Positions 1-30,498 of a stretch of 32,000 nucleotides of DNA are shown here, one piece after another. A program made the translations under genes and the position numbers. The DNA is from Opitutales bacterium (GTDB lineage Bacteria > Verrucomicrobiota > Verrucomicrobiia > Opitutales > UBA9783). Location: contig JBKSMP010000022.1 in assembly GCA_046881885.1 (NCBI GenBank), positions 1 through 32,000 on the forward strand, in the 5' to 3' direction. Under the pieces are notes generated by a model. That model did not search any database and was not told where the DNA came from. It saw nothing but the letters and a program-made list of their open reading frames with translations. The stretch's first letter is position 1. Every line of letters begins with the position of its first letter.

Positions 1-2592
1 AACAAACTTCGACACCAGGCCGGCGGATACGGCAGAAGCGACAAGGTTTTTTAGATAATTGCTATTAGAAATTTCCTTAAAGACTTTGCCTAAATCGCCA
101 GCATTGGCTAAGGTGGAAACGGAAAGGGTATTGGTGATCCCTTCCAATGCAGCTCCGGCACCTTTTGCAATTGCGGTGGACGTACTTGCCCAGTGCGTTG
201 CGACATATTCCGCACCCCAGCCAGCCGTACAAATCGCCAACCCTACCATTAGGAAGGTTCTTAAGGGAGTGCTCATGGTGGTCGTATGCTCCCGCCATTG
301 CTCATGTTGCTCCAAAACTTCCCGTAAATCTACCTCGTATACGTGGCATAAATCCACCACCCATGGGGCCAATTGGCCTTTTTTCACTTCCGCCATCAGC
401 CGGCCGACCACGCGAACATCATCGTATACCAGGATCGGCTCGATAACCTCTAGGTGATTGTAGCCTTCGTCATGGTTCGTTGTCGTAATCCAGCCACTAG
501 TACGATACTGCTCTTGCCGCATCGATCGCTCGCGGCCTGCTCCGAGTTTGACTTGACCACGTGTGCTTTCCAAATGCATTGTTCGGGTTCGAGCCTCCAT
601 GGCTACGGTTTCCAGGTCATCGTGGGCCTTTAAGGTCAGCTTTCGTCCAGCTTGTATTTTTGGCCGCTCGACCTTTTCCTTCATTTCCGTTTTTTGACCA
701 TCACTCGATCCCCAAAAATCGCTGCTATACCAGGTATAATGCGCATAGTCCATCTCAATAAACGGATGGATTTGCATAAGACCATGGGAGGATTTTACCG
801 AAACCTCCTCAATGCCATAAATTGTTGGAGCCACTAAAGTAAGCTTATTGCGGCTTTGCAGCTCAATGTTGCGCCCTGTTAATGCTGGATAAATACCGCT
901 ACGATGATGAATAAGGTGCGAACTATCAGCTTCATGCGCCTCGTCATGGTATTCCAAAACGGCCGGCATAACTTGCAGTACGTCTCCTGAGCTTAAGGTA
1001 ATATCCCCATCCGCAGCGATTTGACTACCCGTAACAACAAGCTGTTCCTTCGCATCCAAGCGAATGTCTCCACCGCTACGAATTTCCGCTTCGCCCCCTG
1101 TTATCGAATGAAATTGCTGATTACTGCCTTCACGACCGACTTGCGTCTCGCTCATAATCAGCGGTGCTTGCATGGCTACCCCTGTAGCCCCTTGGATCAA
1201 ACCATTCGTATTGGCAATACCTACTCCTGAACTTAAATTAACCGCTCCCGTGCGACTCAAAATACCACCGCCCTGATTGAGCAGCATCCCACCTGGAACT
1301 TGGATGTTTACATCTCCTCGCGTGGCTTCCATAAGCCCTTGATTCGCCCAATTGCTATCCGCTGTGAGATTGAAACTGCCTGCAATCACCATCGCAGGAT
1401 TGACATATAAAGACTTCATCGTCTCTTGGCACAAATACAGACGAATCGCATAGGTTTTTTGACCATCACAATTAAATTCTACCATCCAAACAATGTCTTT
1501 TTTCAGCTTACATTGCTCGCCCCAATTTAAATGCCGGCCGATATCCAACACAACACCGTCTTCCACACGTAGCCGATGATGTTCTTCAACCGTATTTAAG
1601 AAAAACTGCCATAATTGATCCGATTCATCCGTAAATTGCGGTAATAAGCGTCGTCCTGCCAAACGATGCATTTCACTGCGAATAATGAGAATCTCTTCAT
1701 CTGGGCTAAATAACGGCAAATCTTGCCCTTCTTGCTTGTATTTTTGGACCAACTCTCGGCAAACATTTCGTTGCTTAATGAGTTCTTTTTTTGCTTTTAA
1801 TTCCGCAAGCTGACAACGCCCGTTAACAATCAATTGTCCCTTAGTTGATGCTACTCCTGGTATAGTGCTGCAATCCCGTTCGCCATTCGTAAAAACCGCT
1901 CTCGGAGCTAAACAATCGTTATCACAAATAACCGTTCCGTAGTTTCTAACACTTGTAAGCTCAGGTAACTGTATTGTCCCAACTTGCATCCGACTTCTGT
2001 GATAGGTTAATAGTTCCGGCAAGGTTCCCATGAAACTTCCAGAAACCCTTAACGTGCTATCCTTGTCTAACGAGAAAATAGGAAAATTGACCGTAAGATC
2101 TCCGTTAATAACCACCTCTCCACGTGCCGACAACGAAACAATAGCTTTGGCAGGTTTTGTCTTATTACTGGCAACAATGTTACCATTCAAAATAAGGCCT
2201 GCATCATGTCCTAAAATAACTCTATTGGCATGTATAGTTAAATTATCGTCACTTTGTCCACTTATTACAACTCCATCCAGACGCCAATCATCACGCATCC
2301 AGACTTGCAAATTCCCAAGTCGTATCCCTAAACCACCTGCTACGCTTCTGTCCAAAGGTGCCCAAGGCGCTTCCTTCCCTTGAAAATATAACGAGGTCTG
2401 CTTTAATTTATCTGTTTTCTTAAAAAAGGTATATCGGACATTACCAACTTCTACTCCAACAGGATTAAAACGCTTGATTTGCAAAACATACTGATTGCTT
2501 GTCTTATTTAAATCAATATCATACGTATCTGCTAAAAGCTTACTGCTCGCAAAACTTGCTAATACTGCTATTAACCAGAAAACCTTCTTCAT
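1..2592 (-). CDS. Large secreted beta-helical exoprotein, filamentous-haemagglutinin/CdiA-like. N-terminal 864 codons only; the ORF continues past the left edge.
   Basis: Absent from the ORF track because it has no stop in the window. I translated the minus strand by hand from the ATG (complement of 2590-2592) to position 1 and found no stop in 864 codons. The N-terminus MKKVFWLIAVLASFASSKLLA/DTY looks like a Sec signal peptide. The body has FHA-repeat texture (SGGDIRLDAKEQLVVTGSQIAADGDITLSSGDVL; GRNIELQSRNKLTLVAP; AGRKLTLKAHDDLETVA). The last in-window residues (STLANAGDLGKVFKEISNSNYLKNLVASAVSAGL) resemble the DUF637 (PF04830) motif of FhaB/CdiA proteins, recalled from memory and not searched. 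Confidence 0.7.
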   Translation of the reverse strand, partial: MKKVFWLIAVLASFASSKLLADTYDIDLNKTSNQYVLQIKRFNPVGVEVGNVRYTFFKKTDKLKQTSLYFQGKEAPWAPLDRSVAGGLGIRLGNLQVWMRDDWRLDGVVISGQSDDNLTIHANRVILGHDAGLILNGNIVASNKTKPAKAIVSLSARGEVVINGDLTVNFPIFSLDKDSTLRVSGSFMGTLPELLTYHRSRMQVGTIQLPELTSVRNYGTVICDNDCLAPRAVFTNGERDCSTIPGVASTKGQLIVNGRCQLAELKAKKELIKQRNVCRELVQKYKQEGQDLPLFSPDEEILIIRSEMHRLAGRRLLPQFTDESDQLWQFFLNTVEEHHRLRVEDGVVLDIGRHLNWGEQCKLKKDIVWMVEFNCDGQKTYAIRLYLCQETMKSLYVNPAMVIAGSFNLTADSNWANQGLMEATRGDVNIQVPGGMLLNQGGGILSRTGAVNLSSGVGIANTNGLIQGATGVAMQAPLIMSETQVGREGSNQQFHSITGGEAEIRSGGDIRLDAKEQLVVTGSQIAADGDITLSSGDVLQVMPAVLEYHDEAHEADSSHLIHHRSGIYPALTGRNIELQSRNKLTLVAPTIYGIEEVSVKSSHGLMQIHPFIEMDYAHYTWYSSDFWGSSDGQKTEMKEKVERPKIQAGRKLTLKAHDDLETVAMEARTRTMHLESTRGQVKLGAGRERSMRQEQYRTSGWITTTNHDEGYNHLEVIEPILVYDDVRVVGRLMAEVKKGQLAPWVVDLCHVYEVDLREVLEQHEQWREHTTTMSTPLRTFLMVGLAICTAGWGAEYVATHWASTSTAIAKGAGAALEGITNTLSVSTLANAGDLGKVFKEISNSNYLKNLVASAVSAGLVSKFV

Positions 2593-2682
2593 GTCCTTTA
2601 TTCCTTTCAATACAATTTTTATTTCTTTGTAAATGTTTTTCTCTTCTTTTTAGCGGAGGTATCCTCTCCGCTAATACTTTTA

Positions 2683-4230
2683 TTATTGTTCTGGTGTTAA
2701 CGACCGTGAAGGTGCTCCGGATGGCGCTGCCGATCGTGCTTGTCGCAATTCTTGTTGCCGTACCATCGTCTGAAATACAGGATTTACTTTCATAGCCTGC
2801 AAATTCTCTTCATATTCCGCTTCATCTACTAACAACATTAACGGTATTCCTCTTTCATCTGCTAATCTTTCAAGCGCATTTTTATGCTGCTCATACTTCG
2901 CTTCTGTCGCTTTTATCACTACGGCCTGTGTCGTGTCCGCTTTGCCATTAATGAATGTTTCGATCTTTCCGGTACTCGTTCCTAATAACTCTAAGGTTGA
3001 AGGAATTTTTTCGTGAATAGATGTTTGGGTATTCGCATGAACAAAAGAATCCCAATATACAGTACGACCTCCTCCACCAAAAACATTGCCTTTAAAATAT
3101 GCAGACCTTGTATTTAAAACATATGACATAATTTGCTGATGGGTTGCATAAGCTTTTATGTTTATTGTACTTTGTACTCTCAAAGCATTACCGATAAAAA
3201 GATGACTGCAAATAACTTGAGAGCTTTGATTTAATCCCAAGGATCCCAAAACACAAAAATTGGATGGCCTCCCTTGTCTTTGTGTGAAACTTTGGATGTT
3301 TGTGATTACCCTTTTACAGTTTAAACAACGATCTCGAAAACCCCACTCATAGCCGCTTGGATTACGAGTACCTTTAGGATCAAATTGTAATTCTCCATTC
3401 CAATTTAATAAAAAACTTCTATTGTCCGTTACAAGGTTTCCTGAAGTATCTTGTAGCACCCTTTTGCTTTCTTTAAAAGCTCCAATTTGGGGTTCAAACT
3501 CACTCTTATTATTTAAGGCTTTTAACGTACAATTACCTCCGACTTGGACCTGACCGCCTGCTATATTATTAAAGGTACAGGGCTCGCCTTTCCAATCCAA
3601 AACACAAGCGATATTTCCTCGATTGTTAACTTCCGTTGCTGGTGATACAAGATCTGCACGTTGCATTGCAAAATTCCCATTTACCTCATTGGTGAATTTC
3701 TGCAAAGCCATCACTTGCCATCCTTGTCCAACAACAATCGTTCCTTTGTTCTGAATAGCTGTTAGCAAACAGGTCCAATCTTGACCAATCCTTAATTCCC
3801 CTTCATTTTCAAACAAAATGCTCTTATTGAGAAACAAACTTTCTGTAACTTCTAAACGGCTACCTTTTGCAATCTTACAAGCCCCTTCATGTTCAAAGTA
3901 CAAGCTTCCATCCCAATTCCCAGCTAAATAAAAACCACCTGAAGTTAGGTTTAGATTCAATCCATCGATCGAAAATCGAACGCCTTTTTCTGGTTGCGTT
4001 ATATCGACTTGTGTCCGATAATCTCCTGGAATAGCTTCGGCCACTTGCCAATTCGCCCCAACTTTTTGAACTTTGATCGCTTCTGTATTTTCACTCCCAG
4101 CAAAATGAACCGTCAATGTCGTAACACTTCCAGAGGTTTTGCTTGTGATTTGTACCATTTCCGCATGCGTTAAGCATATAGAGCCGACTAAATTGCCAGC
4201 TAATACTATCGTTTTGTTTATCTTTATCAT
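2683..4230 (-). CDS. Secreted repeat-rich (beta-helix-like) protein of unknown function, 515 aa, probably co-transcribed with the downstream haemagglutinin-like gene
   Basis: Long ORF in the track. The N-terminus MIKINKTIVLAGNLVGSICLTHA/EM is signal-peptide-like. It is Gly/Asn-rich with alternating short beta-strand-like segments (GTIVVGQGWQV, GGQVQVGGNCTL). The C-terminal tail is acidic and possibly coiled (EAKYEQHKNALERLADERG...). I recognise no family motif. Confidence 0.6.
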   Translation of the reverse strand: MIKINKTIVLAGNLVGSICLTHAEMVQITSKTSGSVTTLTVHFAGSENTEAIKVQKVGANWQVAEAIPGDYRTQVDITQPEKGVRFSIDGLNLNLTSGGFYLAGNWDGSLYFEHEGACKIAKGSRLEVTESLFLNKSILFENEGELRIGQDWTCLLTAIQNKGTIVVGQGWQVMALQKFTNEVNGNFAMQRADLVSPATEVNNRGNIACVLDWKGEPCTFNNIAGGQVQVGGNCTLKALNNKSEFEPQIGAFKESKRVLQDTSGNLVTDNRSFLLNWNGELQFDPKGTRNPSGYEWGFRDRCLNCKRVITNIQSFTQRQGRPSNFCVLGSLGLNQSSQVICSHLFIGNALRVQSTINIKAYATHQQIMSYVLNTRSAYFKGNVFGGGGRTVYWDSFVHANTQTSIHEKIPSTLELLGTSTGKIETFINGKADTTQAVVIKATEAKYEQHKNALERLADERGIPLMLLVDEAEYEENLQAMKVNPVFQTMVRQQELRQARSAAPSGAPSRSLTPEQ

Positions 4231-4999: not shown

Positions 5000-5076
<77 letters not shown>

Positions 5077-17115: not shown

Positions 17116-19752
17116 TTAAGATCTGATAATATGTTGATTCTTTTCATTAGGCAAAAGCATTTGAATTGTAGCTTCATTGCCATCGGAGGAAATTTCTAAT
17201 TTCCCATGCCAAGTTTTAACAACCTCTTGAAGCTCTTGAAAGCCTATGCCAAATTGTAATTCATCGCTCAATCTTTGATTTTGGTTCAAGACTCTAAAAA
17301 GTTTTTTGGTGGAAAAGCTACCTAAATCATTTTTGAATAAGATTTGCTTGTTACCGAATTGATCTTGGCCAACAGATATAACAACTGTATTGCTGGCTTC
17401 CGGCAAAGCCTCCATACAAATGCCGATCAAATTATTCAGGGTTCTCCGTAACAATTGACCATCTACGCGAGCAAATACATTTTCTTTTGCTTGCATTTGA
17501 ATCGTTATGGTTTTGTACAAAATTTTATTTTTTTCAATACAACTGAGGATAGCTTGATTGATACTTTCTAGCGTTAGTTGGTCATAACCTTTTAGGCTTC
17601 CAGGGATAAAAGCGTCCAAACAGGCAGCCATTTCCTCAAGCGTACTGGTTACAAGTTTACATTCTTTTTCATCCAATTTATTGGGACTCTTATCAGCAAG
17701 CAGCAGGCGCAAAACCATTAACGGCGTAATGATGTCATGCGATAAACTACGCGCAATATTGTAACGCTCTAAATAAATAGCTAATTCTTTTTCTTTTTGT
17801 AGTGTATTTAGATTGGAACGTAGCAAAAATAGAACAGCAAGGTAACCTAATATATAGAACGTATGTTGCCAGCTAAAGGTTTCTGGCCAACAAAACGTAC
17901 AATTCGCTTTCGTGTAAATAACGGTTGTTATCAATGCGGTTACTAAACAGGCGAAAATGATTTTACCTTCATGTTGCTTTTCAACGCTCAACAACATGAC
18001 TACGAAAGACAATAATAAGGTTATTATATTTAGGCCATTTTCAGCGGACGTCAAAAAGAGATAGGCGGAGGTAACCGGCAAACAGAAGAATAATGTTGTT
18101 AATTTCAACCATTTTAAGCGATTCTGTTTTGCAAATATTTCTAAAGAATTTCCAAAAATAAGCAATATTGCCATAGTAGCATTGATGAGTATTAACAAAA
18201 GCTTTGAGTAGGTCAAACTTTTGGGCTCAAGTACTAAAGGCATGAGTTGCAAAAATACAAGACAAAAACCTAAGAATGCATTATTGTTTCCTTGTATTTC
18301 TTGAAGGCTTGGACGTTTTTTAGTCCGCTTTTCTTCAACAAAACGCAAATGTTCCAATTCTTTTTTTGTAAAAATCTTTTGTCTTCCCGTACGAAAATAA
18401 GAGAATAAAAATAGTATTACATTGGTGAAAAAACCAGGAAACACACCGTCTATTTTAACGATAGGCTTTGCATAAGTATCCCATAATATAAAGGTAAGAA
18501 ATCCAATTATTGCATTAAAAAGGAAGTGTTTGAAGGGAATCTTCATGTTAAAAAGAAGGAAATATAATGGTGCCAATATCGTAGGGAACCAAAATCCTTC
18601 CACCAAAACCGCTAAATCAAATAAGCCAATGCGTAAACTTGCAAAAATGATGGCTCCGGAGCCTATGAATAAAGCAAATCGACGAGCCCACTTAAGTTTT
18701 TCTGCATCTGAAAATTCTCTATTCTTACGTTTATTGTAGGGTATCATAACATCGTTGACTAACATGATACTTCCAATATTTAAGTAGGAATCTGCTGTAG
18801 ACATTAAAACTGCCAAAATACCAATAACTGCTATGCCAAAAACACCTGCAGGTAAGTAACCTGTAATCAATGTGAGTAATGCTTCATCACCATGTTCTAA
18901 CACAGGCAACAAAACTCTTGCAGCCAAACCCAAAAATATTGCTACAACTGCTAAGAATAGGCAGATGAATGTCGTGTTTCGATAAGCTTTTACTGCTTGG
19001 TTACCATTTCGCATCATAAGTAAGCGTTGGATATGATGAGGTGCAAGTGTTGGCAGTATAAACAAGGTTAAGAATAAATATCGAGGAAGATGCTCATTTG
19101 CAAATGTCATATGAGATTTTGGCAAACGCTCCATTAAGGTGTTCAAGCCGCCAATATCTCCAACAACTGAAATTAAAAGAATAGGGAAGGCAACAATTAA
19201 AACGATTAATTGTAAAACATCCGTAAACGTTACTGCGCGTATTCCTCCACGTCCCGTATAAATAAGGATGATGCCGGCAGAAATTAATAAACTTTTTATG
19301 TATGAAAGTCCGGTTAATACACTGATAGCTGTTCCCATTGCAGTAAACTGTAAGCTTACTAAAAGTATTTCATAAAAACTACCTGCAATTCCTGCCAAAA
19401 CTTTTCCAGATGTTCCATAAGATTTGTAAAAAACGTCACCGATAGAATGACAACCGTAATAATTGCTAAAACGACGGGCAAAAAATAGTCCCACCACTAA
19501 ATAGGCTAGTACCCCTCCGATTTTTCCTACAAATTGTATGATGCCTACTTCATATGCTTTTCCGACTGCACCCATGGTTGAGCTACCACCAATAACGGTC
19601 GCTGCTACGGTACAGCAAATGGCAAAATCGGAAAACTTACGATTGCCAATTGTGTAATTGTCGAAGGTTTTAATTTTTTTTCCAGATACTAATCCTATAT
19701 ATAAAACCGCAACTAAAAACACAATAATGATTGAAACATCTAAAATATGCAT
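17116..19752 (-). CDS. Sodium:solute symporter (SSS/SLC5-like) domain fused to a second multi-TM block and a histidine-kinase-like C-terminus (paralogue 1, 878 aa)
   Basis: SSS-type motifs are present (IYTGRGGIRAVTFTDVLQ, LAVLMSTADS). A charged linker and about six more hydrophobic helices follow. The H-box is ERYNIARSLSHDIITPL, with the His codon at the complement of 17737-17739. The C-terminal ~140 aa are HATPase_c-like with weak N/G1/G2 boxes. Confidence 0.8.
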   Translation of the reverse strand: MHILDVSIIIVFLVAVLYIGLVSGKKIKTFDNYTIGNRKFSDFAICCTVAATVIGGSSTMGAVGKAYEVGIIQFVGKIGGVLAYLVVGLFFARRFSNYYGCHSIGDVFYKSYGTSGKVLAGIAGSFYEILLVSLQFTAMGTAISVLTGLSYIKSLLISAGIILIYTGRGGIRAVTFTDVLQLIVLIVAFPILLISVVGDIGGLNTLMERLPKSHMTFANEHLPRYLFLTLFILPTLAPHHIQRLLMMRNGNQAVKAYRNTTFICLFLAVVAIFLGLAARVLLPVLEHGDEALLTLITGYLPAGVFGIAVIGILAVLMSTADSYLNIGSIMLVNDVMIPYNKRKNREFSDAEKLKWARRFALFIGSGAIIFASLRIGLFDLAVLVEGFWFPTILAPLYFLLFNMKIPFKHFLFNAIIGFLTFILWDTYAKPIVKIDGVFPGFFTNVILFLFSYFRTGRQKIFTKKELEHLRFVEEKRTKKRPSLQEIQGNNNAFLGFCLVFLQLMPLVLEPKSLTYSKLLLILINATMAILLIFGNSLEIFAKQNRLKWLKLTTLFFCLPVTSAYLFLTSAENGLNIITLLLSFVVMLLSVEKQHEGKIIFACLVTALITTVIYTKANCTFCWPETFSWQHTFYILGYLAVLFLLRSNLNTLQKEKELAIYLERYNIARSLSHDIITPLMVLRLLLADKSPNKLDEKECKLVTSTLEEMAACLDAFIPGSLKGYDQLTLESINQAILSCIEKNKILYKTITIQMQAKENVFARVDGQLLRRTLNNLIGICMEALPEASNTVVISVGQDQFGNKQILFKNDLGSFSTKKLFRVLNQNQRLSDELQFGIGFQELQEVVKTWHGKLEISSDGNEATIQMLLPNEKNQHIIRS

Positions 19753-20069: not shown

Positions 20070-21776
20070 ATGCAAGAGTTTGCCGAAAGGTACATGGGGA
20101 TTAGCGTTAATGGAGGAAAAATTTTAGGAGAGGTCTTTTGTTATCAAAAAGATTCCTTAGGTGTTCCTCGTTATAAAATTTCCCAAGAAAGCGTAGATGC
20201 CGAATGGAAACGTTATCAATCTGCGTTAGACTTGACCAAGGTACAACTATTAGAATATAAAAAAAATATAGAAGAAAAGTTAGGAGAAAACGAAGCCGAA
20301 GTTTTTGAAATACAATTGGCTTTGTTGGAGGATGATTATTTGTCAAAGGCTTTATACAAAGAGTTGCAAACAACGCTTTACAATGTAGAATTTTGTTTAA
20401 AAAATGTTATTGAGGCCTGTATGCAACAATTTAAGGGACATGCAATGTTGCATGTTCGTGAAAGTTGTTTAGACTTTAATGATGTAACTTCACGTATTCT
20501 GAAAAATTTGCTTTCTATTTCTCCGGTAGCTCCGTTAAAAGTAAATTTGCAAGGTAAGATTATTGTTGCAGACAATCTTGAGCCTTCAGATGTTGTAGAT
20601 TTGGCCGACAAAGGAATTGCGGCTATTGTTTTGGCGGATGCTTGCTTGAATTCGCATGCAATCATTGTAGCGCGCGGTTTAAATATTCCTATTGTTGCTG
20701 GGGTGGAGGCTGTTCATTTAAAAGTTGCTTCAAATGATGTTTTGCTGGTCGATGGTTCTGAGGGTAAAATTTTTGTAAATCCTTCAAAAGCTTTTTCAGA
20801 TCATTATTTAACTAAAACGGAAAACAAAAAGAAGCTAGCGATAGCGAAAAAAAGTGTTTTAGATGTAGATTTTTGGCTTTCTTATGATTCGAATTTAACA
20901 AAAGAATTCATGGATTCAAATCAGGTAAAGGGGATCGGTTTGTTGCGATCGGAATCCATTTTTCTTGCAAAGGATGAATTACCTAAAGAAGAAGAGCAGT
21001 TTTTGTTTTATAAGTCTGTTGTTGAAAAGTTTGCTCCCTATCCAGTTGTTTTACGCGTGTTAGATGTGGGTGGTGACAAAATCGCAAAAGGTTCTGTTCA
21101 AAGGGAACCAAATCCTTTTTTAGGGGTTCGCGGTATAAGATATTGTTTGCATAATAGTGGACTTTTTAAGCATCAATTACGTGCGATGTTGCGTGCAAGT
21201 GCGTTTGGAAAGGTCCAGATTTTGTATCCGATGATTACGGGTTCGGAAGATTTATTGCAGGCGAATGCCTTATTGGAAGAATGTAAGTCGGAATTAAGGG
21301 ATGAGAAAATTGCTTACGACGATTCTATTCCTATAGGTTCTATGATTGAGATTCCAAGTGCGGTTTTGTTAATGGATCATTTAAGTAATTTTTGTCAGTT
21401 TTTTAGCTTAGGAACGAATGATTTGGTGCAATATACTTTGGCGGCTGATCGTACAAATAATTTAGTGGCTAAACGTTATGGGGACTTGCATCCTTCGATT
21501 TTAAGAATGTTAAAAATGGTTTTTGAAAATGCGCAAACGATACATACGCCCATTACGGTTTGCGGTGAGATGGCAAGTTCTGTTAAAGGTTTTTTGGTTG
21601 GCTTAGCGCTTGGTTTTCGTTCTTTTTGTGTTTATGATAAACAAGTAGACTGCTTAAAGTCTATTTTGTATAATTTGAGTAAAGAAGATTTGGCTTTTAT
21701 TGCCGATAAAATGTGGAGTTTCAGCAACTCGCAAGAAATTTCTCGTTTTTTTGAAAAATTTTTGAACAAAATTTGA
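20070..21776 (+). CDS. ptsI: Phosphoenolpyruvate-protein phosphotransferase (PTS enzyme I)
   Basis: 568 aa. The phospho-His region is NSHAIIVARGLNIPIVAG. The PEP-binding TIM-barrel motifs are present (LRSESIF, LGTNDLVQYTLAADR, VCGEMAS). The start may instead be the ATG at 20094. Confidence 0.85.
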   Translation: MQEFAERYMGISVNGGKILGEVFCYQKDSLGVPRYKISQESVDAEWKRYQSALDLTKVQLLEYKKNIEEKLGENEAEVFEIQLALLEDDYLSKALYKELQTTLYNVEFCLKNVIEACMQQFKGHAMLHVRESCLDFNDVTSRILKNLLSISPVAPLKVNLQGKIIVADNLEPSDVVDLADKGIAAIVLADACLNSHAIIVARGLNIPIVAGVEAVHLKVASNDVLLVDGSEGKIFVNPSKAFSDHYLTKTENKKKLAIAKKSVLDVDFWLSYDSNLTKEFMDSNQVKGIGLLRSESIFLAKDELPKEEEQFLFYKSVVEKFAPYPVVLRVLDVGGDKIAKGSVQREPNPFLGVRGIRYCLHNSGLFKHQLRAMLRASAFGKVQILYPMITGSEDLLQANALLEECKSELRDEKIAYDDSIPIGSMIEIPSAVLLMDHLSNFCQFFSLGTNDLVQYTLAADRTNNLVAKRYGDLHPSILRMLKMVFENAQTIHTPITVCGEMASSVKGFLVGLALGFRSFCVYDKQVDCLKSILYNLSKEDLAFIADKMWSFSNSQEISRFFEKFLNKI

Positions 21777-22586: not shown

Positions 22587-22663
22587 GCCCTGTTCGTCTA
22601 GTTGGTCCAGGACATCGGGTTCTCATCTCGACAACAGGAGTTCGAATCTCCTACAGGGTGCCA
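22587..22663 (+). tRNA. tRNA-Glu (anticodon CUC), CCA encoded
   Basis: GCCCTGT TC GTCT AGTTGGTCCA GGAC A TCGGG TTCTCAT CTCGA CAAC AGGAG TTCGAAT CTCCT ACAGGGT G CCA. It folds as a cloverleaf with a 4-nt variable loop typical of tRNA-Glu. The acceptor stem opens with a G1-U72 wobble. Confidence 0.9.
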
Positions 22664-27864: not shown

Positions 27865-30498
27865 ATGCATGTCATCGATATTTCAATTATTATAAGTTTC
27901 CTTATAGCAACATTATATGTAGGTTTAAAATCTGGTAAAAATATAAAAACATTTAGCGATTATGCTATCGGTAATAGAAATTTTTCTGATTTTGCTATTT
28001 TTTGTACAGTAGCAGCTACTATTATCGGAGGAACGGTAACAATAGGAAATGTTGGGAAATTTTATGATGTTGGAATTAGTCAAATATTAGTACAAATTGG
28101 AGAACCTATTGCTTATATTTTGGTTGGCTTATTTTTGGCACGTCGTTTTGGAAATTATTATGGTTGTTGTTCTTTAGGCGATATGTTCCATAGATCCTAT
28201 GGAATGCCAGGGAAAATTTTAATAGGCATCATAGGAAGCCTGTACGAAATACTTGGTGTGGGATTACAATTTATAGCGATGGGGACAGGTATCAGCGTTT
28301 TAACAGGCCTTTCTTATATAAATAGCCTTTTAATTGCAGGTGGTATTATTCTCATTTATACGGGTCGTGGGGGCATACGTTCTGTAACATTTACAGATGT
28401 TTTGCAGTTTATAGTACTTATTGTAGCTATTCCTATTCTTTTGATAACAGTAATTACAAAAATTGGGGGCATACAAGTATTAATGGAGCAATTACCGCGA
28501 TCGCATGTAACCATTACAGGTGAAAATTTTCGACGATATATATTTTTAATGTTTCCTATGATGTTAATAACATTTTCACCGCATCATGTCCAACGTTTGT
28601 TAATGACTAAAAACTATGAGCAAGGAGCAAAGGCTTTTTTTAATTTAAGTTGGGTTTTTTCATTTGTAGTTATTATGGCCTTGTTTTTAGGTTTTTCAGC
28701 AAAAATTTTATTTCCCGGATTAACACGTCCTGATCAAGCTTTGCTTGTCTTAATGACAAATTATTTACCTGCAGGAATTTTTGGAATAGCTATGATTGGT
28801 ATTTTAGCTGTTTTAATGTCTACGGCAGACTCAAATATAAATAGTGGAAGTATTGTATTGGTTAACGATTTAATTATTCCTTATAAAAAATACATACAAA
28901 AAAAAGAATTATCAGAAGCTGAAAAATTAAAATATGCTCGTATTATTTCAGTATTTATAGGTTTTGCGGCTTTTATTTTTGCAAGTCAATGCACAAGTAT
29001 ATTTGAAACGAGAATTTTTATTCGTACCATATGGTTTTCTATTATTTTATCCCCGTTATATTTCCTTCTTTTTAATGTAAAAATTTCTGTTAAAGGACTT
29101 ATGTTAAGTGCTTTAATCGGCTTGTTTACATTTTCTTTTTGGAATGCAAATCTCAAACCAATTACACAAATTGATGGCCTATTCCCGGGATTTTTCGCAA
29201 ACATCATAACGGTACTTTTCTTTTATTTTTGGGGAGGTCGGCAGAAGGTATTTTCGAAGGAGGAATTAGCAAAGATGCGTCAAGCAGAGGCGTTGCAAAT
29301 CAAGAAGAAGCCGAGTGTACGTGATTTACAAATGCGCAATCATGTATTTTTAGGTTTATGTCTTGTATTTCTTCAATTGGTACCCTTGGTTTTTGAATTA
29401 AATGCATTAACTTATTCAAAGTTAATGTTAACACTTATAAACGGAATTTTAGCCATATTACTTATTTTTGGAGGATCCTTGGAGATTTTTGCAGCATCTA
29501 AGCACTTTCAATGGCTAAAGTTGACGATCTTATTCTTTTGCTTACCAGTTACGTCAGCTTATTTAGTGATAACATCTGCCGAAAATGGCCTGCATGTGTT
29601 AACTTTGTTGTTATCATTTGTTATAATGATTTTAAGCGTTAAGAAGAGGCAAGAAAGTAAAATTGCTTGGGTATGCGCGCTAACTGGTTTTATCACGGTT
29701 ATTACTTATTTTAAAATGGGATGCGAAATTTATTGGCCACATAGTTTTTCTATTCATCATTTGCTTTATTTGTTCGGATTTGTAGCTGTTTTATTGTTGC
29801 TAAGATCTAACATGAATATGTTGCGTATGGCTATTTATCAAGAACGTTACAACATGGCACGGAGCTTATCGCATGATTTGATGTCACCTTTGATGGCATT
29901 TCACATGCTTGTTGGGAACAAAAAGAAGATAGAATTGGATGAAAAAGAAAGTCAGCTCCTCAAAAATATTGCCAATGAAATGGGCAGTTACATTGATGAT
30001 TTTATTGTCGGCAGCTTAAAAGATCAGTCACAATTAAAGCTCGAAGACCTGAATCAATGTGTCCTCAGCTGCATCGAAAAACAAACGATTTTGAATAAAA
30101 ATCTAGAAATTCAATTGCAAGCGAAGGAGACAATTTTTGCACGCGTAGATGCGGTTCTTTTGCGCCGAATCATCAATAATCTCGTCAACGTTTGCCGGCA
30201 TGCATTACCGAACGGTTGCAACACGATCGTAATTGCCATCGACAACGATCCGCTCGGCAATACCCAAATCCTCTTGCAAGCTGCCAATGGTGATTTTTCC
30301 GCAAAAGCTCTTAAGGGGATGTTTATCGAGGATCAAAAATTAGGCGACGAAGTTGAACTCGGCATCAGCTTCCCTGAATTCCAAGATATTGTCGCTAAAT
30401 GGAACGGCAAGTTGGAACTTATTTCTCAAGATAATAACGCTATTATCCAAATCCTTCTCCCTAATAAGGATAACGATAAGCTGATCCAAAAAGCGTAA
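27865..30498 (+). CDS. Sodium:solute symporter domain fused to a second multi-TM block and a histidine-kinase-like C-terminus (paralogue 2, 877 aa)
   Basis: Colinear with the 17116..19752 protein; 42 of the first 60 residues are identical by hand count. SSS motifs are present (IYTGRGGIRSVTFTDVLQ, LAVLMSTADS). The H-box is ERYNMARSLSHDLMSPL, with the His codon at 29872-29874. The C-terminal domain is a degenerate HATPase_c-like domain. Confidence 0.8.
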   Translation: MHVIDISIIISFLIATLYVGLKSGKNIKTFSDYAIGNRNFSDFAIFCTVAATIIGGTVTIGNVGKFYDVGISQILVQIGEPIAYILVGLFLARRFGNYYGCCSLGDMFHRSYGMPGKILIGIIGSLYEILGVGLQFIAMGTGISVLTGLSYINSLLIAGGIILIYTGRGGIRSVTFTDVLQFIVLIVAIPILLITVITKIGGIQVLMEQLPRSHVTITGENFRRYIFLMFPMMLITFSPHHVQRLLMTKNYEQGAKAFFNLSWVFSFVVIMALFLGFSAKILFPGLTRPDQALLVLMTNYLPAGIFGIAMIGILAVLMSTADSNINSGSIVLVNDLIIPYKKYIQKKELSEAEKLKYARIISVFIGFAAFIFASQCTSIFETRIFIRTIWFSIILSPLYFLLFNVKISVKGLMLSALIGLFTFSFWNANLKPITQIDGLFPGFFANIITVLFFYFWGGRQKVFSKEELAKMRQAEALQIKKKPSVRDLQMRNHVFLGLCLVFLQLVPLVFELNALTYSKLMLTLINGILAILLIFGGSLEIFAASKHFQWLKLTILFFCLPVTSAYLVITSAENGLHVLTLLLSFVIMILSVKKRQESKIAWVCALTGFITVITYFKMGCEIYWPHSFSIHHLLYLFGFVAVLLLLRSNMNMLRMAIYQERYNMARSLSHDLMSPLMAFHMLVGNKKKIELDEKESQLLKNIANEMGSYIDDFIVGSLKDQSQLKLEDLNQCVLSCIEKQTILNKNLEIQLQAKETIFARVDAVLLRRIINNLVNVCRHALPNGCNTIVIAIDNDPLGNTQILLQAANGDFSAKALKGMFIEDQKLGDEVELGISFPEFQDIVAKWNGKLELISQDNNAIIQILLPNKDNDKLIQKA

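What the first reader, a model, noticed from the sequence alone, without database searches (positions are those of the whole stretch)
17116..19752. Symporter - second TM block - histidine-kinase-like tail: an architecture unlike known SLC5-coupled sensor kinases
Residues 1 to ~455 look like a complete sodium:solute symporter. A charged linker follows (KKELEHLRFVEEKRTKKRPSLQEIQ), then about six further hydrophobic helices (about residues 487-660). The protein ends with a DHp-type H-box (SLSHDIITPL, His672) and a C-terminal ~140-aa domain alignable by eye to HATPase_c. The SLC5-sensor kinases I know of (CbrA, CrbS/MxtR) connect transporter and kinase through cytoplasmic STAC and PAS domains, not a second membrane block. 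In the kinase-like domain, the Asn expected in the N-box (NLxxNA) is Ile (NNLIGICMEA). The G1 box reads NDLGSF and the G2 box reads FGIGF. The phospho-accepting His is conserved while ATP binding looks compromised. No receiver or response-regulator gene occurs anywhere in the 32 kb. This could be a transport-coupled sensor (transceptor) with a non-canonical output.
Basis: partly seen in the sequence, partly recalled or inferred. Interest (0 to 1): 0.75.

Follow-up and report, generated by a model that had tools for sequence, protein, structure and literature searches.

The report
Symporter fused to dead histidine kinase
This gene from a tiny-genome gut bacterium encodes a sodium-driven nutrient importer joined to a sensor-kinase module; the module keeps its fold and phospho-accepting histidine but has lost the residues that bind ATP, so it is a preserved "pseudokinase" version of a widespread but unstudied transporter-sensor family.

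Summary
ORF 17116-19752 (-) encodes 878 aa with four parts:
- a solute:sodium symporter (SSF) domain;
- a short basic linker;
- a six-helix membrane block, whose last helix runs straight into a DHp helix carrying His672;
- an alpha/beta CA-like domain.

In the CA-like domain the Mg-binding Asn is Ile778. The G1 Asp/Gly and the first G2 Gly are also lost.

The architecture is not unique. A profile of the membrane block plus H-box finds 806 cluster representatives at E<=1e-10. These are SSF-fused proteins and stand-alone six-TM kinases in similar numbers. About 90% keep the canonical ATP-binding residues. Some have a neighbouring response regulator, a C-terminal receiver or a split SSF gene.

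The window protein belongs to a degenerate offshoot in reduced-genome gut Opitutales:
- all 35 members lack the catalytic Asn and the G1 Asp;
- 34 of 35 keep the His;
- the tail is under purifying selection (dN/dS 0.04-0.10);
- the family is multi-copy, with a second copy at 27865-30498 and at least 10 loci in a related MAG.

The most likely function is an active importer carrying a selected pseudokinase module that can no longer autophosphorylate. What that module signals to is unknown. This is a new variant of known kinds.

The parts
17116..19752 (-). Gene A: 878-aa symporter + six-TM block + pseudo-histidine-kinase protein. Identical to NCBI MFQ6723408.1, which is annotated only as 'sodium:solute symporter family transporter'.
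   Evidence: ORF listing. Identity to P0238.
18373..19752 (-). Residues 1-460: solute:sodium symporter (SSS/SLC5) domain. It includes the TM8 ion-site motif M317-S-T-A-D-S322.
   Evidence: Pfam SSF E 8.5e-32. Foldseek to SGLT2, SiaT and CHT1, E about 1e-14, TM-score (target) 0.69-0.82. Sequence alignment to CHT1, where MSTADS matches MSSADS. dN/dS 0.11 against the ortholog.
18307..18372 (-). Residues 461-482: basic cytoplasmic linker, predicted helix 463-477.
   Evidence: Sequence: 10 K/R in residues 455-486. AlphaFold2 secondary structure.
17803..18306 (-). Residues 483-650: second membrane block of six helices. It is homologous to the membrane domain of a large family of six-TM histidine kinases.
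   Evidence: Hydropathy. AlphaFold2 helices. Block HMM hits in relatives. Profile search with 806 representatives at E<=1e-10. No Pfam family matches.
17608..17802 (-). Residues 651-715: DHp-like helical hairpin. Helix 1 is continuous with the sixth membrane helix. The H-box is SLSHDIITPL, with His672 at 17737-17739.
   Evidence: AlphaFold2 helices 628-687 and 695-713. Foldseek to EnvZ-chimera, VicK-type and HK853 DHp+CA structures. His present in 34/35 clade I members. dN/dS 0.044. Coordinates checked.
17119..17607 (-). Residues 716-878: CA-like (HATPase_c-like) alpha/beta domain with degenerate ATP-binding motifs. N-box NNLIGICMEA lies at 17407-17436 (Ile778 at 17419-17421). The G1 equivalent KNDLGSF lies at 17314-17334. 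The G2 equivalent QFGIGF lies at 17239-17256.
   Evidence: Sub-threshold Pfam hits. Predicted fold and Foldseek matches. Motif register and census. dN/dS 0.10. 36 tail positions conserved in >=33/34 clade I members.
27865..30498 (+). Gene B: 877-aa paralog with the same architecture. H-box SLSHDLMSPL at 29863-29892, N-box NNLVNVCRHA at 30175-30204, G1 equivalent QAANGDF at 30277-30297, G2 equivalent ELGISF at 30355-30372.
   Evidence: Translation. 58% identity to gene A. Pfam finds SSF only, with no kinase hit even at E<=10. Coordinates.

Best explanation
Gene A, and its paralog gene B, encode a sodium-coupled solute importer fused to the remains of a membrane-embedded sensor histidine kinase.

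**Ancestral form.** The ancestor was a transporter-coupled two-component sensor. It had an SSF domain, a six-TM kinase membrane domain, a DHp, a CA and often a receiver. It paired with a response regulator. In that system the transporter acts as the co-sensor of the kinase.

**What changed here.** In the reduced-genome gut Opitutales lineage of this window, the phosphorelay was dismantled stepwise:
1. The receiver lost its Asp.
2. The CA lost its Mg-binding Asn.
3. The receiver was deleted and the G1/G2 ATP-binding residues were lost.

**Proposed present function.** The protein can no longer phosphorylate itself with ATP. It works mainly as a nutrient transporter. The DHp/CA-like tail is kept as a dimerising pseudokinase module that is conformationally coupled to the transporter through the six-TM block. 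The strictly conserved His-Asp-x-x-Thr/Ser-Pro motif suggests some phosphoryl chemistry with an unidentified partner may remain. That could be phosphatase activity or phosphotransfer towards a phosphorylated regulator. It would not be autokinase activity.

**Shown:** domain anatomy, homology, motif loss, purifying selection, family distribution and multi-copy status.
**Inferred:** loss of ATP binding, transport activity, dimerisation and the role of the tail.
For: **Anatomy**
- Pfam SSF hit.
- AlphaFold2 model with pLDDT 82 and pTM 0.70. It has six extra helices, and the last one is continuous with the His672 helix.
- Foldseek matches SLC5 transporters at E about 1e-14. It matches DHp+CA kinase structures at E 2e-7, TM-score (target) 0.65-0.71.

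**Motif loss in 35 clade I sequences (register)**
- Mg-binding Asn: 0/35.
- G1 Asp: 0/35.
- First G1 Gly: 1/35.
- First G2 Gly: 1/35.
- His672, Asp673 and Pro677: 34/35 each.

**Graded decay across relatives**
- PF02518 bit scores are 59 and 53 (clade III), 47 (clade II), 16 (gene A) and none (gene B, P0013, P0058).
- Clade II has lost only the Asn.
- The C-terminal extension of clades II/III aligns to family receivers. hhalign gives probability 84% and E 7e-6, with Glu at the phospho-Asp position.

**Ancestral state is canonical**
- Among the best 150 superfamily representatives, the Asn is kept in 112/122 and the G1 Asp in 110/122.
- Pfam finds HisKA + HATPase_c, with or without Response_reg.
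- Homologous response-regulator genes lie next to the kinase gene.
- In L088 a separate SSF gene overlaps a stand-alone six-TM kinase gene.

**Tail retained by selection**
- dN/dS of gene A against its syntenic ortholog: DHp 0.044, CA-like 0.10, SSF 0.11.
- 36 tail positions are conserved in >=33/34 clade I members.

**Transporter looks intact**
- The TM8 motif MSTADS aligns to CHT1 MSSADS, and Ser318 and Asp321 are invariant.

**No partner nearby**
- No receiver is found in the window or in about 395 kb of related Verrucomicrobial DNA.
Against: - Loss of ATP binding is inferred from motifs only. No pocket geometry or biochemistry was examined.
- The near-invariant His argues that phosphoryl chemistry persists, so a purely structural tail does not explain it.
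- The whole genome could not be searched. A response regulator, an Hpt protein or a catalytically intact kinase paralog may exist elsewhere.
- The receiver HMM I built is crude. It missed the atypical regulator of L003.
- Transport activity and substrate are unknown. In CbrA, by contrast, the Na2 site is not conserved, although histidine transport was shown (PMC7918813).
Confidence: 0.6

Rival explanations
1. The His is still phosphorylated, but in trans. The dead-CA protein would heterodimerise with, or be phosphorylated by, a catalytically competent paralog or another kinase. It would then pass phosphate to a regulator encoded elsewhere.
For: - His672 and the H-D-x-x-T/S-P motif are kept in 34/35 members.
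- Four related MAGs each carry one canonical ~1000-aa copy and one copy of the degenerate type. The pairs are L020+L024, L026+L023 and L017+L027, plus L018+L050, where L050 is only a 408-aa fragment.
- This is consistent with an old pairing of active and inactive copies.
Against: - In the closest MAG, all ten loci found are of the clade I type (58-64% identical to gene A, one 98%). The two with a complete tail are degenerate.
- Both copies in the window are degenerate.
- The DNA patterns used in that scan did recover canonical copies in other genomes.
Confidence: 0.12
2. Non-canonical output. The tail would report transport state to a partner that is not a response regulator. One candidate is the phosphotransferase system, whose Enzyme I gene lies divergently next to gene A.
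For: - ptsI at 20070-21776 is adjacent to gene A, and this is conserved in the syntenic ortholog locus L005.
- The lineage is reported to lack sugar transporters (PMC12306168), which would fit a regulatory PTS.
- Among gene B-type paralogs the CA-like domain is more conserved (75-92%) than the transporter (61-70%). That is expected for a shared docking surface.
Against: - The ptsI adjacency is absent in the clade II locus L001, which has TLC, Lyase_1 and ligA instead. It is also absent around paralog P0028.
- No HPr or EIIA gene was identified in the window; small ORFs were not scanned for these families.
- High tail conservation with lower dS (0.39-0.79, against 0.97-1.24 for SSF) can equally reflect gene conversion.
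Confidence: 0.12
3. The protein is still a working autokinase that binds ATP in an unusual way despite the substitutions.
For: - The CA fold is predicted with pLDDT 78-89.
- The tail is under strong purifying selection.
- Asn774, Gly835 and (in gene A) Gly837 are retained.
Against: - The Mg-binding Asn, the adenine-binding Asp, the first G1 Gly and the first G2 Gly are all missing together in 35/35, 35/35, 34/35 and 34/35 members.
- The replacements vary (V/I/T/L; A/N/S/T) rather than converging on a new motif.
- From established knowledge (my own recollection, not checked here), replacing the equivalent Asn in EnvZ (N347D) abolishes kinase activity.
Confidence: 0.08
4. The tail is a functionless relic on its way to deletion.
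For: - The lineage has a reduced genome of under 1 Mb (PMC12306168).
- The receiver-like extension has already been lost.
Against: - dN/dS is 0.04-0.10 in the tail, as low as or lower than in the transporter.
- All full-length members keep the tail intact.
- 36 tail positions are conserved in >=33/34 clade I members.
- The predicted fold is confident.
Confidence: 0.03

Closest known systems
SLC5/STAC sensor histidine kinases (CbrA, CrbS/MxtR, RpuS, PrlS)
   Same: An N-terminal solute:sodium symporter domain is fused in one chain to a histidine-kinase module. For CbrA the transporter domain is shown to transport (PMC7918813).
   Different: - Those proteins link the 13-TM transporter to the kinase through cytoplasmic STAC, PAS and coiled-coil segments.
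- They keep conserved H, N, D and G boxes, autophosphorylate, and have LuxR- or NtrC-type regulators next to them (PMC7918813, PMC9100948).
- Here the link is a six-helix membrane block that runs directly into the DHp helix. The ATP motifs are lost and no regulator is nearby.
Uncharacterised SSF + six-TM + HisKA + HATPase_c (with or without REC) family. It may include the multi-copy 'PutP' and 'PanF' kinase fusions noted in Orientia tsutsugamushi (PMC10732058); that link was not tested by sequence.
   Same: - Same domain order and a homologous six-TM block.
- Also found in small-genome, host-associated bacteria (Rickettsiaceae and Megaira).
- The Orientia 'PutP' proteins are reported as multi-copy (PMC10732058).
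   Different: - Typical members have canonical kinase motifs and a fused receiver or a neighbouring response regulator.
- The window protein and its clade have neither.
Pseudo-histidine kinases (DivL of Caulobacter; the kinase region of RetS)
   Same: The histidine-kinase fold is retained under selection after loss of catalytic competence. In DivL the kinase domain is repurposed as an input sensor of a response regulator's phosphorylation state (PMC4211667, PMC5361649). RetS kinase-region structures were among the Foldseek matches of the relative P0044.
   Different: - From my own knowledge, not checked here: DivL has lost the His (it is Tyr) and is cytoplasmic with PAS domains.
- Here the His is kept, the ATP-binding residues are lost, and the module is welded to a transporter.
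- The module is present in many paralogs.
Membrane-embedded kinases whose last TM helix continues into the DHp (for example DesK, AgrC and LytS/BceS-type; from established knowledge)
   Same: There is no periplasmic or cytoplasmic sensor domain. The signal must pass from a helical membrane bundle directly into the DHp helix.
   Different: No sequence relationship was detected to their membrane domains (no Pfam hit). Those kinases are catalytically active.
Transporter/kinase co-sensor pairs (DctA-DcuS, BceAB-BceS, UhpC-UhpB; from established knowledge)
   Same: A transporter supplies the stimulus to a membrane kinase. The split arrangement in L088, where a separate SSF gene overlaps a six-TM kinase gene, mirrors such pairs.
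   Different: In this family the two partners are usually fused. In the window lineage the kinase half is catalytically degenerate.

Membership tests
Solute:sodium symporter family (SSS/SLC5, Pfam PF00474) | Profile match above the curated threshold | tested here: met
   110.9 bits against a cutoff of 22.8, residues 33-405. Gene B scores 122.1 bits.
Solute:sodium symporter family (SSS/SLC5, Pfam PF00474) | LeuT-type fold as in SGLT, SiaT and CHT1 | tested here: met
   The predicted model matches SGLT2, SiaT and CHT1 at E about 1e-14, TM-score (target) 0.69-0.82. This rests on a prediction, not a solved structure.
Solute:sodium symporter family (SSS/SLC5, Pfam PF00474) | Conserved ion-site residues on core TM8 | tested here: met
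   M317-S-T-A-D-S322 aligns with MSSADS of CHT1. Ser318 and Asp321 are invariant in 56 family sequences.
Solute:sodium symporter family (SSS/SLC5, Pfam PF00474) | Sodium-coupled solute transport | not testable with these tools
   Needs uptake assays. The substrate is unknown. The best sub-threshold NCBIfam models are PanF and PutP.
SLC5/STAC sensor histidine kinases (CbrA/CrbS type) | STAC domain directly after the transporter | tested here: not met
   Only about 25 residues of basic linker follow the transporter, then six hydrophobic helices. No Pfam family lies between residues 405 and 764 apart from a chance-level POPDC1-3 hit (E 0.47).
SLC5/STAC sensor histidine kinases (CbrA/CrbS type) | Cytoplasmic PAS domain before the kinase | tested here: not met
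   No PAS hit at E<=10. The membrane helix 628-687 is continuous with the DHp.
SLC5/STAC sensor histidine kinases (CbrA/CrbS type) | Conserved H, N, D and G boxes, and a neighbouring response regulator | tested here: not met
   Only the H box is kept. No receiver occurs in the 32 kb.
Class I (HisKA-type) histidine kinase | Phospho-accepting His on DHp helix 1, with an acidic residue and Thr/Asn following (H-E/D-x-x-T/N) | tested here: met
   H672-D-I-I-T676-P677. His is kept in 34/35 clade I members, Asp in 34/35, and Thr/Ser in 33/35.
Class I (HisKA-type) histidine kinase | DHp hairpin plus alpha/beta CA fold | tested here: met
   AlphaFold2 secondary structure. Foldseek to 4kp4_A, 4u7o_B and 5c93_B at E 2e-7 to 2e-6. 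A family profile matches HisKA+HATPase_c kinases at E about 1e-30.
Class I (HisKA-type) histidine kinase | N-box Mg-binding Asn | tested here: not met
   Ile778 in gene A and Val in gene B. 0/35 in clade I, against 112/122 in superfamily representatives.
Class I (HisKA-type) histidine kinase | G1 box Asp-x-Gly-x-Gly | tested here: not met
   Gene A has N808-D-L-G-S. The Asp is kept in 0/35 and the first Gly in 1/35 of clade I.
Class I (HisKA-type) histidine kinase | G2 box Gly-x-Gly-x-Gly | tested here: inconclusive
   The first Gly is lost (Q833; 1/35 in the clade). Gly835 is kept in 35/35. Gly837 is kept in gene A but is Ser in 26/35.
Class I (HisKA-type) histidine kinase | Pfam HisKA and HATPase_c above the curated thresholds | tested here: not met
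   HATPase_c scores 16.4 against 26.4, HATPase_c_5 scores 18.6 against 22, and there is no HisKA hit.
Class I (HisKA-type) histidine kinase | ATP-dependent autophosphorylation | not testable with these tools
   Needs biochemistry on the soluble tail.
Uncharacterised SSF + six-TM + histidine-kinase family | Homologous six-helix membrane block between transporter and DHp | tested here: met
   Block HMM hits in Verrucomicrobial and alphaproteobacterial/Rickettsiaceae relatives. The profile finds 806 representatives at E<=1e-10. Of the best 150, 62 are complete fusions.
Uncharacterised SSF + six-TM + histidine-kinase family | Partner receiver, either fused or encoded next door | tested here: not met
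   Present in P0272, P0311, P0320 and others and in L003 and L087. Absent from genes A and B and their surroundings.
Pseudo-histidine kinases | Kinase fold kept under selection although catalytic residues are lost | tested here: met
   Motif loss together with dN/dS of 0.044 (DHp) and 0.10 (CA-like).

The most novel reading that the evidence does not exclude
In a genome of about 1 Mb, a dozen transporter-anchored pseudokinases share a conserved cytoplasmic tail. This tail would dock one common hub protein, or accept phosphate by reverse or PTS-type transfer on the conserved His. The paralog set would then form a nutrient-flux sensing network that works without any ATP-dependent sensor kinase, and possibly without classical response regulators.
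Probability: 0.12. Interest if true: 0.8.

Novelty: new variant of a known kind. Interest (0 to 1): 0.55.

Why it matters
**An overlooked family**
- Symporter-kinase fusions are known mainly from the STAC/PAS type. What their transporter domain contributes is still called enigmatic (PMC7918813).
- This work brings out a second, large, unstudied family. Here the transporter is coupled to the kinase through a dedicated six-helix membrane block.
- That family also occurs as split gene pairs, which supports a direct transporter-to-kinase coupling.

**A natural experiment**
- In one lineage the phosphorelay was taken apart step by step, while every fold was kept under selection and the gene multiplied.
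- This offers matched active and inactive homologs for asking what a kinase module does for a transporter once it can no longer use ATP.

**A practical point**
- Gene A's own record, and those relatives that carry a source name, are labelled only as 'sodium:solute symporter' or 'hypothetical protein'. Metabolic reconstructions of these reduced gut Verrucomicrobia miss both their number and their signalling ancestry.

Tried and rejected
1. **Receiver identity of the C-terminal extension in the ~1000-aa relatives.**
   - Pfam found nothing.
   - hhalign against six textbook receivers gave 8% probability in the wrong register.
   - The idea was kept only after a family-specific receiver alignment gave 84% probability and E 7e-6 in the expected register. 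AlphaFold2 also showed an alternating beta/alpha pattern.
   - Foldseek on the whole model could not show it separately.
2. **A conserved link to ptsI.** Synteny holds only for the close ortholog L005. It does not hold for clade II or for paralog contexts.
3. **Promoter and terminator scan around gene A.** Counts equal the shuffled expectation, so it is uninformative.
4. **Single-sequence search of the tail against solved structures.** Only E 0.9 to VanS. The fold search was needed.
5. **Search for the family-specific response regulator (L087/L003 type).**
   - Only 12 database hits, none named as Verrucomicrobial.
   - None in the 395 kb of related DNA held.
   - The index search is not sensitive enough to prove absence.
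6. **Look-ups that returned nothing.** Contig look-ups for P0013, P0017, P0022 and gene B were not on record. The afdb50 fold library was unavailable. The first alignment was too diverse for a locus scan.
7. **Rfam and tRNA scan of the window.** Only two tRNAs were found. The higher-GC start of the window is not rRNA.


Full report
**1. Observation**

The ORF is real. It runs 17116..19752 on the - strand, starts with ATG and encodes 878 aa.

- Pfam places a solute:sodium symporter domain at residues 33-405, E 8.5e-32.
- The only kinase-related hits are below threshold. HATPase_c scores 16.4 bits against a cutoff of 26.4. HATPase_c_5 scores 18.6 against 22. There is no HisKA hit.
- NCBIfam agrees. 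It gives transporter models (sss, PanF, PutP) plus weak VanS/CusS-type kinase matches over residues 747-869.
It lies at 27865-30498 (+), is 877 aa and 58% identical, and has the same layout. Pfam sees only the transporter in it, even at E<=10.

**2. Anatomy**

I predicted the structure with AlphaFold2 from a 56-sequence family alignment. The model has mean pLDDT 82 and pTM 0.70.

- After the transporter comes a basic linker helix at 463-477. Residues 455-486 hold 10 K/R.
- Six helices follow: 483-508, 515-533, 543-568, 573-589, 592-615 and 628-687.
- The sixth helix leaves the membrane and continues without a break as DHp helix 1, which carries His672.
- DHp helix 2 is 695-713. An alpha/beta domain spans 728-867.
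- Hydropathy independently supports the second membrane block, finding six hydrophobic segments in the paralog.
- An even number of helices after an SSS domain (13 TM in PutP, CbrA and MxtR) puts the tail in the cytoplasm. This is an inference from known SSS topology (PMC7918813).
- Foldseek against the PDB matches the N-terminal half to SGLT2, SGLT1, SiaT, CHT1 and NIS at E about 1e-14.
- It matches the tail to DHp+CA kinase structures 4kp4_A, 4u7o_B and 5c93_B at E 2e-7 to 2e-6, TM-score (target) 0.65-0.71.
- There is no STAC or PAS domain. The region that would hold them is membrane helices.

**3. The ATP-binding motifs are lost**

Alignment with canonical relatives fixes the register:

| Motif | Canonical relatives | Gene A |
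|---|---|---|
| N box | NLINN(S/C)IEA / N(I/L)xxN(A/S) | NNLIGICMEA |
| G1 box | (R/K)DNGCGI | KNDLGSF |
| G2 box | GFGIGL | QFGIGF |

Counts in the 35 closest family members, which I call clade I:

| Residue | Kept in clade I |
|---|---|
| Mg-binding Asn | 0/35 (replaced by V16, I12, T6, L1) |
| G1 Asp | 0/35 |
| First G1 Gly | 1/35 |
| First G2 Gly | 1/35 |
| His672 | 34/35 |
| Asp673 | 34/35 |
| Pro677 | 34/35 |

The single exception at the His is a sequence with a local deletion.

**4. The architecture is a populated family, and this lineage is its degenerate branch**

*Relatives of the whole protein.* About 60 full-length relatives come from Opitutales and Puniceicoccales metagenome-assembled genomes. 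Those that carry a source name are labelled only as symporters or hypothetical proteins. I grouped them by similarity rank, not by a formal tree:

- **Clade III** (P0043-51, about 1000 aa, plus P0045 at 875 aa): canonical Mg-Asn and G1 box, with G2 reading GLSIGL in most.
- **Clade II** (P0034-39): has lost only the Mg-binding Asn.
- **Clades I and IV**: have lost everything except the His.

PF02518 bit scores fall in the same order: 59 and 53, then 47, then 16 (gene A), then no hit.

*The C-terminal extension.* Clades II and III carry about 115 extra C-terminal residues.
- AlphaFold2 predicts an alternating beta/alpha fold there, pLDDT 75-87.
- Pfam and a textbook-receiver profile do not recognise it.
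- A profile built from the family's own receivers matches it with 84% probability and E 7e-6 over 88 columns.
- In that alignment FVLIDSD sits on ILVVDDE, and CFFIEY sits on the phospho-acceptor strand.
- I read it as a receiver whose Asp has become Glu.

*The wider family.* A profile of the six-helix block plus H-box was searched against 1.84 billion cluster representatives.
- It found 1392 hits at E<=1e-3 and 806 at E<=1e-10.
- Of the best 150, 62 are complete SSF + block + kinase proteins and 57 are stand-alone block + kinase proteins of 349-593 aa.
- Among those with a tail, the Mg-binding Asn is kept in 112/122 and the G1 Asp in 110/122.
- Pfam confirms SSF + HisKA + HATPase_c in sampled members, plus Response_reg in P0272. 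Several others have clear C-terminal receivers.

*Genomic contexts.*
- A fused kinase is followed by a 342-aa receiver protein and a dicarboxylate symporter gene.
- An SSF gene, a fused kinase and a 298-aa receiver protein lie in one block. The two receiver proteins are homologous over 257 aa, E 4e-17.
- A stand-alone six-TM kinase gene overlaps an upstream separate SSF gene.
- The coexistence of split and fused forms argues that transporter and six-TM kinase work as one unit.

*Taxonomic spread.* The same architecture occurs in Rickettsiaceae, Megaira and other alphaproteobacterial MAGs. A paper on Orientia reports multi-copy 'PutP' proteins with symporter + HisKA + HATPase_c + REC, and 'PanF' proteins with a kinase domain (PMC10732058). 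I did not test those proteins against this family.

**5. The degenerate tail is under selection**

Gene A was compared with its syntenic ortholog in locus L005, which has the same gene order (CAAX protease, tsaE, gene A, ptsI, OMP, tig, clpP, clpX, rsmE). dN/dS values are:

| Domain | dN/dS |
|---|---|
| Transporter (SSF) | 0.11 |
| Six-TM block | 0.15 |
| DHp | 0.044 |
| CA-like | 0.10 |

- Thirty-six tail positions are conserved in at least 33 of 34 clade I sequences. They include C738, R770, N774, C779, L783-P784, F813-S814 and W848xG850.
- Among gene B-type paralogs the CA-like domain is 75-92% identical, while the transporter is 61-70%.
- The CA-like domain also has lower dS, 0.39-0.79 against 0.97-1.24.
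- This fits either a shared binding partner or gene conversion between the 3' ends of paralogs. I could not separate the two.

**6. Lineage and copy number**

- Gene A is identical to MFQ6723408.1 from an Opitutales MAG.
- One relative, P0022, lies on a contig whose length equals the N50 of MAG 101_22-192. That MAG belongs to family UBA9783, a gut Opitutales group with genomes under 1 Mb and about 940 genes (PMC12306168).
- The closest genome hit, CAZIZB01, holds ten separate loci that each begin at residue 1 of the protein.
- So the family is highly multi-copy there. The caveat is that a MAG can mix related strains or species.
- Four other MAGs (three termite-gut Puniceicoccales and one human-gut Verrucomicrobia MAG) each hold one canonical ~1000-aa copy and one copy of the degenerate type; in one of the four this is only a 408-aa fragment.
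- The window's surroundings are housekeeping genes.
- No receiver domain was found in the window or in about 395 kb of related Verrucomicrobial DNA. This used both a generic receiver HMM and an HMM of the family-specific regulator.
- That is a sample, not a genome census.

**7. Most likely mechanism**

- *Shown:* an intact-looking symporter domain with its ion-site motif. MSTADS aligns to CHT1 MSSADS, and Ser318 and Asp321 are invariant. Also shown are the homologous six-TM kinase membrane block, a DHp with conserved His, a CA fold without ATP-binding residues, purifying selection throughout, and descent from canonical sensor kinases.
- *Inferred, step 1:* the protein still imports a solute.
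- *Inferred, step 2:* it cannot bind Mg-ATP and so cannot autophosphorylate.
- *Inferred, step 3:* the tail dimerises and is conformationally coupled to the transporter via the six-TM block. It would act as a regulatory or scaffolding pseudokinase.
- *Inferred, step 4:* the conserved H-D-x-x-T/S-P motif matches the HisKA phosphatase signature H-E/D-x-x-T/N (my own knowledge, not checked here). This suggests residual phosphatase or phosphotransfer chemistry with an unidentified partner.

I give the overall picture 0.6. The loss of autokinase activity is the best-supported step. The present role of the tail is the weakest.

**8. Rivals**

- Trans-phosphorylation by an intact kinase elsewhere: 0.12.
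- Signalling to a non-regulator partner such as the PTS, whose Enzyme I gene is next door in this and the ortholog locus only: 0.12.
- An unusual but active kinase: 0.08.
- A functionless relic: 0.03. This is contradicted by the dN/dS values.

**9. Comparison with known systems**

- It works like a transporter-coupled sensor, but it is not a member of the SLC5/STAC kinase family. STAC, PAS, canonical boxes and a neighbouring regulator were all tested and not met.
- It is a member of the SSS transporter family by sequence and predicted fold.
- It descends from class I histidine kinases but fails their catalytic criteria. It is best described as a pseudo-histidine kinase.
- From my own knowledge, DivL lost the His; this protein instead keeps the His and has lost the ATP site.

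**10. Verdict**

- The novelty is a new variant of known kinds. It is a lineage-specific, multi-copy, selected pseudokinase branch of a large but unstudied symporter + six-TM + kinase family.
- Interest is 0.55. The dismantling series and the split/fused forms make the old question of what the transporter domain does in such sensors directly testable.
- The architecture itself is not unique, and the function of the tail remains inferred.

Noticed in passing
window 27865-30498 (+): A second full-length paralog of the finding lies in the same window. It has the same architecture and degenerate kinase motifs, and Pfam detects only its transporter.
   Followed up: yes
window 1-2649 (-) and 2683-4230 (-): An open frame of at least 883 aa runs off the window start. 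It has a signal-peptide-like N-terminus and lies in DNA of 45-49% GC, against about 35% elsewhere. Next to it is a 515-aa ORF with no Pfam family apart from a chance-level hit to a Rickettsia surface antigen. Both are probably surface proteins.
   Followed up: no
L001 8191-9774: A TLC-family ATP/ADP translocase gene sits directly upstream of the clade II homolog in a related reduced-genome Verrucomicrobium. This hints at energy parasitism, whereas the published description of UBA9783 suggests free-living scavengers.
   Followed up: no
window 20070-21776 (+): PTS Enzyme I (ptsI) is transcribed divergently from gene A. The lineage is reported to lack sugar transporters. The adjacency is kept in ortholog locus L005 but not in more distant relatives.
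   Followed up: partly
L038, L039, L043, L055 (P0069-P0074): Cardinium/Amoebophilaceae and other Bacteroidota (Cytophagales) MAGs encode 1150-1190-aa proteins. Each joins a related symporter domain to an HD (RelA/SpoT-like, PF13328) domain. This is another transporter-signalling fusion in intracellular bacteria.
   Followed up: no
L035 and L036, 9995-12949: A Rickettsia endosymbiont of Polydrusus carries two copies of a 984-aa protein (same length and neighbouring ORFs at both loci). The protein has a symporter domain and about 550 C-terminal residues that match no Pfam family and not the kinase-tail HMM.
   Followed up: no
L087 6805-7833; L003 12666-13562: The response regulators next to canonical family members form their own small family. 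Each has a receiver with an insertion plus a ~150-aa C-terminal domain with no Pfam match.
   Followed up: partly
L088 2602-5335: This is a split version of the architecture. A separate 470-aa SSF gene overlaps by 14 bases the start of a 444-aa stand-alone six-TM histidine kinase gene.
   Followed up: partly
window genes A and B; L006, L008: Among paralogs the dead CA-like domain is more conserved than the transporter (84-90% against 66-74% amino-acid identity). It also has lower synonymous divergence. This suggests gene conversion of 3' ends or a shared partner.
   Followed up: partly
L086 1353-4934; L085 4930-7357: Paralog P0028 lies beside genes for a TraG/TrwB-like coupling protein and a ClpB-like AAA protein. 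In L086 there is also a 714-aa protein with a faint OTU (deubiquitinase-like) hit. This may be a mobile or host-interaction region.
   Followed up: no
window 5000-5076 (-), 22587-22663 (+): tRNA-Met (CAT) and tRNA-Glu (CTC) genes. No other Rfam family matches in the window.
   Followed up: yes
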